64,000 nucleotides of DNA from Escherichia coli. Lineage in GTDB: Bacteria > Pseudomonadota > Gammaproteobacteria > Enterobacterales > Enterobacteriaceae. The position numbers and the translations under genes were made by a program. The stretch is taken from NCBI RefSeq assembly GCF_003334315.1, contig NZ_QOWR01000011.1; one strand, 5' to 3'. Below, in pieces: positions 3,082 through 58,647 of this stretch (its first letter is position 1; each line of letters opens with the position of its first letter). Below the pieces are notes generated by a model. That model was not told the origin of the DNA. It did not search any database and was given only the letters and a program-made list of their open reading frames with translations.

Positions 3082-7431
<4,350 letters not shown>

Positions 7432-55821: not shown

Positions 55822-55995
55822 TATCACGGATGCTTTTATAAAAATAATTAGAATAAGTCACTACGCATTCCCATAAATGCGGGAGAGGAATCTATCACAT
55901 TGATGAATGTTAGCCAGATATACGCCAGGAATGGGGAATTGTTTAGCGGCAGAATATGTAAACAAAAGCGGCAATAAATGTTGCCGGGAGAGATG

Positions 55996-56033
55996 GTAGG
56001 GCGGATAAGATGCGTCAGCATCGCATCCGACAC
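55996..56033. repeat. REP-like palindromic unit
   Basis: gtagggcggataagatgcgtcagcatcgcatccgacacc matches the REP consensus. Confidence 0.6.
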
Positions 56034-56052
56034 CAACCCGCACGCTAAATAT

Positions 56053-56083
56053 AAAAGGGGAGCGGTTTCCCGCTCCCCTTTGG
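56053..56083 (-). terminator. Rho-independent terminator of tisAB
   Basis: Minus strand: aaaggggagcgggaaaccgctcccctttt followed by atattt; immediately 3' of tisB. Confidence 0.7.
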
Positions 56084-56100
56084 TGCGACTTGAATCTGAA

Positions 56101-56190
56101 TTACTTCAGGTATTTCAGAACAGCATCAAGCAGTTGCAGTGCTGCAACAATGAGTTTGAGGATAAGAATGGCGATATCCACCAGGTTCAT
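56101..56190 (-). CDS. tisB: Type I toxin TisB (29-aa membrane peptide, SOS-induced)
   Basis: Minus-strand ORF translates exactly to MNLVDIAILILKLIVAALQLLDAVLKYLK*; SD caggag 7 nt upstream; not in the ORF track (too short). Confidence 0.92.
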   Translation of the reverse strand: MNLVDIAILILKLIVAALQLLDAVLKYLK

Positions 56191-56300
56191 ACGCGTCTCC
56201 TGTGGTTCAGGAGCACTGCCAGCTGACGTACCTTTCCGCTGCCTGTTGCCAGCTGTTGTGCACGCGGTATCTCAAGGAGAAACGTTGTGCTTGTTGACAT
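56187..56300 (-). other. tisA: tisA upstream ORF of the tisAB transcript (37 codons)
   Basis: Minus-strand ORF MSTSTTFLLEIPRAQQLATGSGKVRQLAVLLNHRRRV* whose stop overlaps the tisB ATG (ATGA); contains the IstR-complementary region. Confidence 0.55.
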
Positions 56301-56424
56301 AACACAGTGTGCTCACGCGGGGTTAAGGCGCTGACGGCACCACCCGTTTCAGCCAGGACTTAGTGCGCCGGGTAACGATGCGGCCCCCGCATAACACATT
56401 GCGTACAGTGATATTATAGAAGTT

Positions 56425-56444
56425 TACTGTATAAATAAACAGTA
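56425..56444. promoter_or_regulatory. LexA box (SOS box) controlling tisAB and the divergent istR-2 promoter
   Basis: TACTGTATAAATAAACAGTA: palindromic CTGT-N8-ACAG with AT-rich core, near-perfect match to the LexA consensus. Confidence 0.85.
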
Positions 56445-56550
56445 ATATTTGGACAAAACGCAAACTGTGATCGATACTCAACTATGCACTAAATACGTCA
56501 AAATTCGTGCCGAAATTGCGCGTTCTGCGCGGAACACGTATACTTTCAGT

Positions 56551-56625
56551 GTTGACATAATACAGTGTGCTTTGCGGTTACCAGCCGCAGGCGACTGACG
56601 AAACCTCGCTCCGGCGGGGTTTTTT
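56551..56625 (+). ncRNA. istR: IstR-1 antitoxin sRNA (about 75 nt); the longer SOS-induced IstR-2 would start upstream near the LexA box
   Basis: TATACT -10 at 56539-56544; 5' segment gttgacataatacagtgtgct complementary to tisAB mRNA (plus-strand 56293-56313); ends in GC hairpin plus U-run (56600-56625). Confidence 0.65.
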
Positions 56626-56754
56626 GTTATCTGCAATTCAGTACAAAACGTGATCAACCCCTCAATTTTCCCTTGCTGAAAAATTTTCCATTGTCTCCCC
56701 TGTAAAGCTGTGCTTGTATAAATATTGTTAAACACAAAACCAACAAGGTCCCCA

Positions 56755-56853
56755 ATGACTACTTCCATGCTCAACGCAAAACTACTACCAACTGCGCCAT
56801 CCGCCGCAGTGGTCGTCGTGCGTGTGGTGGTGGTCGTCGGCAATGCGCCGTAG
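56755..56853 (+). CDS. ivbL: ilvB operon leader peptide IvbL (32 aa)
   Basis: MTTSMLNAKLLPTAPSAAVVVVRVVVVVGNAP*: Val/Leu-rich run typical of attenuation leaders; below the ORF-track cutoff. Confidence 0.9.
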   Translation: MTTSMLNAKLLPTAPSAAVVVVRVVVVVGNAP

Positions 56854-56877
56854 GGACTGGAACAACACACGATTCCA

Positions 56878-56913
56878 AAACCCCGCCGGCGCAAACCGGG
56901 CGGGGTTTTTCGT
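56878..56913 (+). terminator. ilvB attenuator (rho-independent terminator)
   Basis: aaaaccccgccggcgcaaaccgggcggggtttttcgttt. Confidence 0.8.
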
Positions 56914-56958
56914 TTAAGCACCTCCCGGAAAGTCGGCCCAGAAGAAAAGGACTGGAGC

Positions 56959-58647
56959 ATGGCAAGTTCGGGCACAACATCGACGCGTAAGCGCTTTACC
57001 GGCGCAGAATTTATCGTTCATTTCCTGGAACAGCAGGGCATTAAGATTGTGACAGGCATTCCGGGCGGTTCTATCCTGCCTGTTTACGATGCCTTAAGCC
57101 AAAGCACGCAAATCCGCCATATTCTGGCCCGTCATGAACAGGGCGCGGGCTTTATCGCTCAGGGAATGGCGCGCACCGACGGTAAACCGGCGGTCTGTAT
57201 GGCCTGTAGCGGACCGGGTGCGACTAACCTGGTGACCGCCATTGCCGATGCGCGGCTGGACTCCATCCCGCTGATTTGCATCACTGGTCAGGTTCCCGCC
57301 TCGATGATCGGCACCGACGCCTTCCAGGAAGTGGACACCTACGGCATCTCTATCCCCATCACCAAACACAACTATCTGGTCAGACATATCGAAGAACTCC
57401 CGCAGGTCATGAGCGATGCCTTCCGCATTGCGCAATCAGGCCGCCCAGGCCCGGTGTGGATAGACATTCCTAAGGATGTGCAAACGGCAGTTTTTGAGAT
57501 TGAAACACAGCCCGCTATGGCAGAAAAAGCCGCCGCCCCCGCCTTTAGCGAAGAAAGCATTCGTGACGCAGCGGCGATGATTAACGCTGCCAAACGCCCG
57601 GTGCTTTATCTGGGCGGCGGTGTGATCAATGCGCCCGCACGGGTGCGTGAACTGGCGGAGAAAGCGCAACTGCCTACCACCATGACTTTAATGGCGCTGG
57701 GCATGTTGCCAAAAGCGCATCCGTTGTCGCTGGGTATGCTGGGGATGCACGGCGTGCGCAGCACCAACTATATTTTGCAGGAGGCGGATTTGTTGATAGT
57801 GCTCGGTGCGCGTTTTGATGACCGGGCGATTGGCAAAACCGAGCAGTTCTGTCCGAATGCCAAAATCATTCATGTCGATATCGACCGTGCAGAGCTGGGT
57901 AAAATCAAGCAGCCGCACGTGGCGATTCAGGCGGATGTTGATGACGTGCTGGCGCAGTTGATCCCGCTGGTGGAAGCGCAACCGCGTGCAGAGTGGCACC
58001 AGTTGGTAGCGGATTTGCAGCGTGAGTTTCCGTGTCCAATCCCGAAAGCGTGCGATCCGTTAAGCCATTACGGCCTGATCAACGCCGTTGCCGCCTGTGT
58101 CGATGACAATGCAATTATCACCACCGACGTTGGTCAGCATCAGATGTGGACCGCGCAAGCTTATCCGCTCAATCGCCCACGCCAGTGGCTGACCTCCGGT
58201 GGGCTGGGCACGATGGGTTTTGGCCTGCCTGCGGCGATTGGCGCTGCGCTGGCGAACCCGGATCGCAAAGTGTTGTGTTTCTCCGGCGACGGCAGCCTGA
58301 TGATGAATATTCAGGAGATGGCGACCGCCAGTGAAAATCAGCTGGATGTCAAAATCATTCTGATGAACAACGAAGCGCTGGGGCTGGTGCATCAGCAACA
58401 GAGTCTGTTCTACGAGCAAGGCGTTTTTGCCGCCACCTATCCGGGCAAAATCAACTTTATGCAGATTGCCGCCGGATTCGGCCTCGAAACCTGTGATTTG
58501 AATAACGAAGCCGATCCGCAGGCTTCATTGCAGGAAATCATCAATCGCCCTGGCCCGGCGCTGATCCATGTGCGCATTGATGCCGAAGAAAAAGTTTACC
58601 CGATGGTGCCGCCAGGTGCGGCGAATACTGAAATGGTGGGGGAATAA
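56959..58647 (+). CDS. ilvB: Acetolactate synthase I large subunit
   Basis: 562-aa ThDP-dependent enzyme ORF (GDGS...MNIQE ThDP-binding region). Confidence 0.93.
   Translation: MASSGTTSTRKRFTGAEFIVHFLEQQGIKIVTGIPGGSILPVYDALSQSTQIRHILARHEQGAGFIAQGMARTDGKPAVCMACSGPGATNLVTAIADARLDSIPLICITGQVPASMIGTDAFQEVDTYGISIPITKHNYLVRHIEELPQVMSDAFRIAQSGRPGPVWIDIPKDVQTAVFEIETQPAMAEKAAAPAFSEESIRDAAAMINAAKRPVLYLGGGVINAPARVRELAEKAQLPTTMTLMALGMLPKAHPLSLGMLGMHGVRSTNYILQEADLLIVLGARFDDRAIGKTEQFCPNAKIIHVDIDRAELGKIKQPHVAIQADVDDVLAQLIPLVEAQPRAEWHQLVADLQREFPCPIPKACDPLSHYGLINAVAACVDDNAIITTDVGQHQMWTAQAYPLNRPRQWLTSGGLGTMGFGLPAAIGAALANPDRKVLCFSGDGSLMMNIQEMATASENQLDVKIILMNNEALGLVHQQQSLFYEQGVFAATYPGKINFMQIAAGFGLETCDLNNEADPQASLQEIINRPGPALIHVRIDAEEKVYPMVPPGAANTEMVGE

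What the first reader, a model, noticed from the sequence alone, without database searches (positions are those of the whole stretch)
56293..56571. Near-identical 21-nt direct repeat 258 bp apart gives the antisense pairing between IstR and the tisAB leader
gttgacataaCacagtgtgct (56293-56313) and gttgacataaTacagtgtgct (56551-56571) match at 20 of 21 positions in the same orientation. tisAB is transcribed from the minus strand and istR from the plus strand, so the IstR 5' end is complementary to the tisAB mRNA at the first copy; the single difference would be a G-U wobble. The first copy overlaps the tisA start codon, consistent with a ribosome standby site that IstR-directed RNase III cleavage would remove.
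Basis: partly seen in the sequence, partly recalled or inferred. Interest (0 to 1): 0.45.

Follow-up and report, generated by a model that had tools for sequence, protein, structure and literature searches.

The report
Known IstR-1/tisB antisense pairing site
The 21-nt direct repeat is real and is the well-studied site where the E. coli antitoxin RNA IstR-1 pairs with the leader of the tisB toxin mRNA; it is textbook biology, not a discovery.

Summary
GTTGACATAACACAGTGTGCT (56293-56313) and GTTGACATAATACAGTGTGCT (56551-56571) are the only two matches in the window, and no match appeared in 100 shuffles. The stretch is 100% identical to E. coli K-12 MG1655. It contains tisB (minus strand), the untranslated tisA ORF, a LexA box and istR (plus strand, Rfam RF01400, 150 bits).

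Because the two genes are transcribed divergently, a direct DNA repeat gives complementary RNAs. The literature has described this "21 nt of complementarity" since 2004. IstR-1 pairs through its 5' end with the ribosome standby site about 100 nt upstream of the tisB ribosome-binding site. This blocks 30S loading, and RNase III cuts the duplex to give the inert +106 mRNA.

I added cross-genus evidence. All 61 TisB loci with enough upstream sequence (15 named genera) carry both copies. A sharply bounded 22-bp duplex is 98.7% paired, three positions changed on both sides, and one-sided changes are mostly G-U wobbles.

The overlap with the tisA ATG is real but incidental, since that codon is ACG or ACA in 45 of 61 loci. 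Occlusion of the standby site, not cleavage, is the primary block.

Novelty: already known. Interest: low.

The parts
56293..56314 (-). IstR-1 target in the tisAB mRNA leader (about +93 to +114 if +1 = 56406), which is the single-stranded ribosome standby region.
   Evidence: The conserved 22-bp duplex is defined. The standby-site role comes from PMC6690012.
56551..56572 (+). 5'-terminal pairing segment of IstR-1 (nt 1-22).
   Evidence: 5'-end pairing is stated in PMC3919570.
56496..56625 (+). istR gene as matched by Rfam RF01400, covering most of IstR-2 and all of IstR-1. IstR-1 is inferred to span 56551-56625 (75 nt).
   Evidence: 150.1 bits, gathering score 45. The IstR-1 start is inferred from the -10 box position and the 75-nt length, which I recall from Vogel et al. 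2004 and could not cite from a held paper.
56539..56544 (+). IstR-1 promoter -10 TATACT. The -35 TTGCGC is at 56516-56521 with a 17-nt spacer, which places +1 at G 56551, the first paired base.
   Evidence: Read from the sequence. The -10 hexamer (TATACT; TATAGT or TATAAT in 4 loci) is conserved 6-7 nt upstream of that base in all 61 loci. The promoter is reported as conserved in E. coli in PMC11264685.
56600..56623 (+). istR intrinsic terminator
56425..56444 (.). LexA box TACTGTATAAATAAACAGTA in the divergent promoter region
   Evidence: 2 mismatches to the consensus, the only hit in the window. Conserved in the related loci.
56413..56418 (-). tisAB promoter -10 TATAAT. The predicted +1 is about 56406.
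   Evidence: the seventh base after the -10 is G in all loci. A 359-nt tisAB RNA is stated in PMC2577331, consistent with the span from 56406 to the terminator.
56187..56300 (-). tisA ORF (37 codons). It is untranslated, and its ATG lies inside the IstR-1 target.
   Evidence: Described as untranslated in PMC2826370. Not conserved as an ORF and has no NCBIfam match.
56101..56190 (-). tisB toxin gene (29 aa)
   Evidence: NF011340 69.6 bits against a cutoff of 53; TIGR04459 59.9 against 38
56054..56081 (-). tisAB intrinsic terminator

Best explanation
This is the tisB/istR-1 type I toxin-antitoxin locus of E. coli K-12. The two repeat copies lie on the same DNA strand but are transcribed in opposite directions, so the RNAs are complementary. 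Copy 2 is the first 21-22 nt of the constitutive 75-nt antitoxin RNA IstR-1. Copy 1, read on the minus strand, lies in the tisAB mRNA leader about 100 nt upstream of the structured tisB ribosome-binding site. In the processed +42 mRNA that stretch is the single-stranded standby site where 30S subunits preload via protein S1. IstR-1 pairs with it through its 5' end, with a G-U wobble at IstR position 11 and a second at position 22. This excludes the 30S subunit. The duplex is then cut by RNase III, giving the translationally dead +106 mRNA. After DNA damage LexA is inactivated, tisAB transcription outruns IstR-1, and TisB is made. Shown here: the repeat, its uniqueness, gene identities and strands, duplex strength, and cross-genus conservation with compensatory changes. 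Taken from published experiments: transcript ends, standby binding, RNase III cleavage and the phenotype.
For: The repeat is unique in the window, with 0/100 shuffles matching. The locus is 100% identical to MG1655, with tisB, ivbL and ilvB annotated. Rfam istR scores 150 bits on the + strand over copy 2. TisB meets both NCBIfam equivalog cutoffs, and a LexA box is present. The first 30 nt of IstR-1 form a -45.2 kcal/mol duplex at copy 1, against -28.8 for the next best non-self site in 128 kb of both strands. A scan anchored on TisB, independent of the repeat, returned 66 loci in 15 named genera. All 61 with enough upstream sequence have both copies, with 0-2 mismatches against 6-8 in shuffles, spaced 237-258 nt apart. 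All 16 representative loci have an istR hit above the gathering score on the strand opposite tisB. On 43 distinct sequences the 22-bp core is 98.7% paired, against 21-48% when slid by 1-3 columns. Three positions changed on both sides (GC 25/AU 14; CG 42/UA 1; UA 42/CG 1), 53 one-sided cells are G-U wobbles against 12 unpaired, and 0/500 shuffles reach the observed values. Pairing collapses exactly at the predicted IstR-1 +1, whose -10 box is conserved at a nearly fixed distance of 6-7 nt. Literature: 21-nt complementarity, rnc and istR effects (PMC4147584); standby site, S1, IstR-1 competition and +106 (PMC6690012); 5'-end pairing (PMC3919570).
Against: Nothing contradicts it. There are limits to what I could show. 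In silico folding did not reproduce the published unmasking of the target on +1 to +42 processing (mean unpaired probability 0.40 vs 0.42, higher in 30 of 61, p = 0.37). RNAalifold found no covariation for a 5'-end/target helix. The exact +1, +42 and +106 positions are inferred from promoter geometry and the published 359-nt length, not read from the primary papers, which are not held. The covariation counts are not phylogenetically corrected.
Confidence: 0.97

Rival explanations
1. This is leader-ORF coupling as in hok/mok/sok. IstR-1 would act by covering the tisA start codon and blocking tisA translation, to which tisB translation would be coupled.
For: The tisA ATG (56298-56300) lies inside the duplex, and the tisA ORF ends 4 nt into tisB (56187-56300 vs 56101-56190).
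Against: The equivalent codon is ATG in only 16 of 61 loci (ACG 44, ACA 1). Its distance to the tisB ATG ranges from 74 to 143 nt in all three frames, and ORF lengths run from 8 to 72 codons. The tisA peptide matches no NCBIfam family. tisA is described as untranslated (PMC2826370). 30S binding at the site is tRNAfMet-independent and depends on S1 (PMC6690012).
Confidence: 0.02
2. The repeat is a DNA-level element, such as two binding sites for one protein or a duplication scar, and the RNA complementarity is a by-product.
For: Both copies contain a perfect TTGACA hexamer and a near-palindrome (CACAGTGTG), as seen in the sequence. The spacing is conserved at 237-258 nt.
Against: The differences between copies are biased towards those that keep RNA pairing: 53 G-U cells against 12 unpaired, and three positions changed on both sides. 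Conservation stops exactly at the predicted IstR-1 transcription start. Both copies persist when a group II intron moves them 2155 nt apart. No -10 element follows either TTGACA at promoter spacing (one search lists only one promoter-like site, elsewhere). Published experiments show direct RNA-RNA action in vitro.
Confidence: 0.01
3. It is a chance repeat with no function.
For: None.
Against: 0 of 100 shuffles give any match, and the repeat is present in 61 of 61 related loci across 15 named genera.
Confidence: 0

Closest known systems
tisB/istR-1 type I toxin-antitoxin system of E. coli K-12 (Vogel et al. 2004; Darfeuille et al. 2007; Romilly et al. 2019, PMC6690012)
   Same: It is this locus itself. 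The sequence is 100% identical to MG1655, with the same genes, the same 21-nt complementarity and the same standby-site mechanism.
   Different: Nothing differs. My only refinement is that the conserved duplex across genera is 22 bp and includes a second G-U in E. coli.
zorO/orzO (E. coli O157:H7) and shoB/ohsC
   Same: These are divergently transcribed, non-overlapping type I pairs. [quoted passage not shown]
   Different: They have different toxins and sRNAs, are not LexA-controlled, and are at other chromosomal positions.
dinQ/agrB
   Same: It is SOS/LexA-controlled and divergent, the +1 mRNA is inert, and a 5'-processed (+44) form is active (PMC5668327).
   Different: There is no standby site. 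AgrB induces a refolding that sequesters the Shine-Dalgarno sequence instead of competing with ribosomes.
hok/mok/sok
   Same: The antisense RNA binds far upstream of the toxin start, RNase III cuts the duplex, and an inert primary transcript is activated by processing.
   Different: Sok is cis-encoded and overlaps its target. It works by blocking translation of the leader ORF mok, to which hok is coupled. Here the leader ORF tisA is untranslated and not conserved.

Membership tests
tisB/istR-1 type I toxin-antitoxin locus | 29-aa hydrophobic TisB toxin ORF | tested here: met
   The ORF is at 56101-56190 (-). NF011340 scores 69.6 bits (cutoff 53) and TIGR04459 scores 59.9 bits (cutoff 38), both full length. 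It is annotated as tisB in MG1655.
tisB/istR-1 type I toxin-antitoxin locus | istR sRNA gene matching Rfam RF01400 | tested here: met
   150.1 bits against a gathering score of 45, model positions 1-130 of 130, at 56496-56625 on +.
tisB/istR-1 type I toxin-antitoxin locus | Toxin and antitoxin genes transcribed divergently without overlap | tested here: met
   tisB and its terminator are on the minus strand, and istR and its terminator on the plus strand. The two repeat copies are 258 nt apart, with the promoters between them.
tisB/istR-1 type I toxin-antitoxin locus | LexA box at the tisAB promoter | tested here: met
   TACTGTATAAATAAACAGTA at 56425-56444, 2 mismatches to the consensus and the only hit in the window. 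Conserved in related loci. LexA binding itself was not tested here.
tisB/istR-1 type I toxin-antitoxin locus | About 21 nt of complementarity between the IstR-1 5' end and the tisAB leader, about 100 nt upstream of the tisB ribosome-binding site | tested here: met
   The target lies 103-123 nt upstream of the tisB ATG. It is conserved, with compensatory changes, in 43 distinct sequences.
tisB/istR-1 type I toxin-antitoxin locus | Target is a 30S/S1 standby site exposed in the +42 mRNA, and the IstR-1 duplex is cut by RNase III to give +106 | not testable with these tools
   Published in PMC6690012. My folding predictions neither confirm nor contradict the unmasking. With +1 at 56406, +106 falls at 56301, inside the duplex (inference).
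hok/sok-type control by a translated leader ORF | A translated upstream ORF whose initiation is blocked by the antisense RNA and to which toxin translation is coupled | tested here: not met
   The tisA ATG is present in only 16 of 61 loci, and its frame and length are not conserved. It is reported as untranslated.
cis-encoded (overlapping) type I antitoxins such as Sib/Ibs | Antitoxin gene overlaps the toxin gene on the opposite strand | tested here: not met
   The istR gene (56496-56625) does not overlap the tisAB transcription unit (about 56048-56406). Complementarity is limited to 22 nt.

The most novel reading that the evidence does not exclude
The G-U wobbles in the duplex may be a selected tuning feature, not neutral drift. 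Across genera the mRNA side of the duplex is almost invariant, while IstR carries C-to-U changes at three positions (11, 20 and 22). These always leave a G-U pair. U11 recurs in Escherichia, in Klebsiella/Raoultella and in one Enterobacter. In E. coli the U11-G pair lies at about +104, two bases from the published RNase III cut at +106. The wobble could therefore set the position or rate of RNase III cleavage, or the off-rate of IstR-1. A related idea is that the repeat is the relic of a local duplication of an ancestral overlapping antisense module. I found no extended homology to support that.
Probability: 0.1. Interest if true: 0.3.

Novelty: already known. Interest (0 to 1): 0.08.

Why it matters
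As a finding it adds nothing new. This pairing is the founding observation of the tisB/istR-1 system and the best-characterised natural example of antisense control at a ribosome standby site, with a role in SOS-induced persister formation. The value of this check is a clean confirmation that the first-stage reader correctly recognised the locus and mechanism from raw sequence. It also gives a small comparative data set: 61 loci in 15 named genera showing that the duplex, its exact 5' boundary and its spacing are conserved with compensatory changes, while the tisA start codon inside it is not.

Tried and rejected
1. Extended homology beyond the repeat, to test for a longer ancient duplication. 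Local alignment of the flanks is no better than shuffles. The long -78 kcal/mol duplexfold of whole IstR-1 against the +42 mRNA is only modestly beyond shuffled controls (mean -52, minimum -68) and ignores intramolecular structure. Rejected.

I replaced it with a degenerate DNA pattern for the TisB core.

3. Within-E. coli variation is too low for a covariation test, since the locus is at least 98% identical.

4. The RNAalifold consensus of the +1 to +120 leader recovered only a conserved GGGG/CCCC helix and local hairpins. It gave no compensatory support for the published pairing between the 5' end and the target, because the variable 5' segment aligns poorly.

5. Per-species accessibility of the target in +1 versus +42-equivalent mRNAs showed no systematic difference. 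This step of the model therefore rests on published probing only.

6. The primary paper by Darfeuille et al. 2007 is not held, and no supplement is held for PMC6690012. The exact transcript ends are therefore inferred.

7. The Rfam 'P6' hit at 56879-57064 scores 22 bits against a gathering score of 50 and matches essentially only a terminator hairpin. I dismissed it as chance.

Full report
**1. Observation**

Both are on the + strand, differ only at position 11, and are 258 nt apart. They are the only matches in the 64-kb window on either strand, even with three mismatches allowed. None of 100 dinucleotide-preserving shuffles produced a match.

The identity extends by one base on the left (T at 56292/56550). 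It does not extend significantly beyond that. Flank alignments score no better than shuffles, with 57/1000 (downstream) and 786/1000 (upstream) shuffles scoring as high.

**2. What is there**

The stretch 55900-56950 is 100% identical to E. coli K-12 MG1655 and many other E. coli genomes, between emrD and ivbL-ilvB. The features are as follows.

- On the minus strand lie tisB (56101-56190, 29 aa), the 37-codon tisA ORF (56187-56300) and an intrinsic terminator (56081-56054).
- TisB meets both NCBIfam equivalog cutoffs. The tisA peptide matches nothing.
- On the plus strand, Rfam istR (RF01400) matches 56496-56625 at 150 bits against a gathering score of 45, ending in a terminator at 56600-56623.
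- A LexA box (TACTGTATAAATAAACAGTA, 56425-56444) lies between the genes.
- The IstR-1 promoter (-35 TTGCGC 56516-56521, 17-nt spacer, -10 TATACT 56539-56544) places +1 at G 56551. That is the first base of copy 2 and gives a 75-nt RNA ending at 56625. The 75-nt length is from my memory of Vogel et al. 2004 and agrees with the sequence.
- The tisAB -10 (TATAAT, 56418-56413) places +1 near 56406. This fits the published 359-nt RNA (PMC2577331) and puts copy 1 at about +94 to +114, the tisA AUG at +107 and the tisB AUG at +217.

**3. Why a direct repeat gives antisense pairing**

The two copies are on the same DNA strand but are read from opposite strands, so the RNAs are complementary.

The first 30 nt of IstR-1 form a -45.2 kcal/mol duplex at copy 1. 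The next best non-self site on either strand of the whole window reaches only -28.8.

**4. Published mechanism**

- The primary +1 mRNA is inert.
- Removal of 41 nt gives the +42 mRNA, which exposes a single-stranded standby site about 100 nt upstream of the sequestered tisB ribosome-binding site.
- 30S subunits bind there through protein S1, independently of tRNAfMet.
- IstR-1 pairs across that segment, displaces 30S and S1, and abolishes in vitro translation.
- RNase III cuts the duplex to give the inert +106 mRNA (PMC6690012; PMC5668327).

[quoted passage not shown] With +1 at 56406, +106 falls at 56301, inside the duplex (my inference).

**5. Independent comparative test**

To avoid circularity I anchored on the toxin, not the repeat. 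A degenerate DNA pattern for the TisB core matched once in the window and in 66 genome loci. These fall in 15 named genera of Enterobacteriaceae, plus several unclassified Enterobacteriaceae genomes: Escherichia, Salmonella, Citrobacter, Enterobacter, Leclercia, Lelliottia, Klebsiella, Raoultella, Trabulsiella, Siccibacter, Phytobacter, Superficieibacter, Intestinirhabdus, Huaxiibacter and Pseudenterobacter. All 66 encode 29-aa TisB homologues, with 38 distinct sequences.

An unbiased search looked for the best 21-nt direct repeat between the leader and the region further upstream. It recovered the same element in every locus tested except L059, with 0-2 mismatches (6-8 in shuffled controls) and 237-258 nt spacing. 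In L059 the second copy lies beyond the 750-nt search window. Taken together, 61 of 61 loci with enough upstream sequence have both copies. The remaining six held loci are truncated less than 330 nt upstream of tisB. All 16 representative loci have an Rfam istR hit above the gathering score on the strand opposite tisB.

I then joined the IstR segment to the leader segment for the 43 distinct sequences and counted pairs.

- Pairing is 91-100% at each of 22 consecutive positions and only 2-65% at each position outside them.
- The 22-bp core is 98.7% paired, against 21-48% when the partner is slid by 1-3 columns.
- Three positions changed on both sides: G-C 25/A-U 14, C-G 42/U-A 1, and U-A 42/C-G 1.
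- One-sided changes give 53 G-U cells against 12 unpaired cells.
- No shuffle out of 500 reaches the observed pairing, double-change or covariation values.
- The 5' boundary of the duplex coincides with the predicted IstR-1 +1, whose -10 box is conserved at a nearly fixed distance of 6-7 nt in all loci.

These counts are not phylogenetically corrected.

**6. The tisA start codon**

The position that co-varies most (G-C/A-U) is the middle base of the tisA ATG. The codon is ATG in 16 loci, ACG in 44 and ACA in 1. Its distance to the tisB ATG varies from 74 to 143 nt in all three frames, and the ORF that follows runs from 8 to 72 codons.

What is conserved is the pairing, not the start codon. This argues against a mok/hok-like coupling model and agrees with the literature.

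**7. What I could not confirm computationally**

- The RNAalifold consensus of the leader recovers a conserved GGGG/CCCC long-range helix but gives no covariation for pairing between the 5' end and the target.
- The predicted accessibility of the target is the same in +1 and +42-equivalent mRNAs across 61 species (0.40 vs 0.42, higher after truncation in 30 of 61, p = 0.37).

The unmasking step therefore rests on published structure probing, not on my computations.

**8. Verdict**

The finding is already known, since the window contains the very locus on which the mechanism was worked out. I add three refinements.

- The conserved duplex is 22 bp, with two G-U pairs in E. coli.
- The primary block is occupancy of the standby site, and cleavage is secondary.
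- The tisA ATG is dispensable.

The most novel reading left open is that the recurrent IstR-side G-U wobbles tune RNase III cleavage or duplex kinetics. One of them lies two bases from the +106 cut. This is speculative, at about 10%.

Noticed in passing
window 56298-56300 (minus strand); loci L002-L067: The tisA start codon inside the IstR-1 target is ATG in only 16 of 61 related loci (ACG in 44, ACA in 1). The T-to-C change is mirrored by an A-to-G change in IstR-1. The tisA frame and length are not conserved.
   Followed up: yes
L059 6450-6675 (Klebsiella michiganensis DSM 25444): A group II intron (RF02005, 180.6 bits) is inserted between the tisB promoter region and istR, just beside the LexA box. 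Both repeat copies are intact but are now 2155 nt apart instead of about 248.
   Followed up: partly
L068 about 3400-4700 (E. coli DETEC-P351); equivalent to window about 56431-56438: An ISKox3 (ISL3-like) element is inserted inside the LexA box with an 8-bp target duplication (ATAAATAA). It splits the palindrome between the tisAB side and the istR side, so LexA control or the -35 region of tisAB is probably altered in this strain.
   Followed up: partly
window 56551-56572 vs 56293-56314; alignment A1: Variation in the duplex is asymmetric. The mRNA side is almost invariant across genera, whereas the IstR side carries C-to-U changes at positions 11, 20 and 22 that always leave G-U pairs. U11 occurs in Escherichia, Klebsiella/Raoultella and one Enterobacter.
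   Followed up: partly
window about 56322-56361 (minus strand); alignment A2 columns 55-95: A central block of the tisAB leader (AAGTCCTGGCTGAAACGGGTGGTGCCGTCAGCGCC) is nearly invariant across 15 named genera. It is more conserved than the TisB N-terminus or the first 25 nt of the transcript. It includes the stem-loop region reported as the 5' structure element of the standby site.
   Followed up: no
window 56040-56640 vs E. coli genomes: Only 4151 of 5426 complete E. coli genomes carry the full tisB/istR locus. Many extra short matches per genome correspond to the istR terminator, as PMC11264685 also noted.
   Followed up: no
window 56362-56381 (minus strand): [quoted passage not shown] It occurs only once in this window.
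   Followed up: partly
window 55903-55977 (+) and 56755-56853 (+): The small-protein gene ysdE lies just downstream of the tisAB terminator, and the ivbL leader peptide with its attenuator lies upstream of ilvB. Both are ordinary annotated features. The sub-threshold Rfam 'P6' hit at 56879-57064 matches essentially only a terminator hairpin.
   Followed up: no
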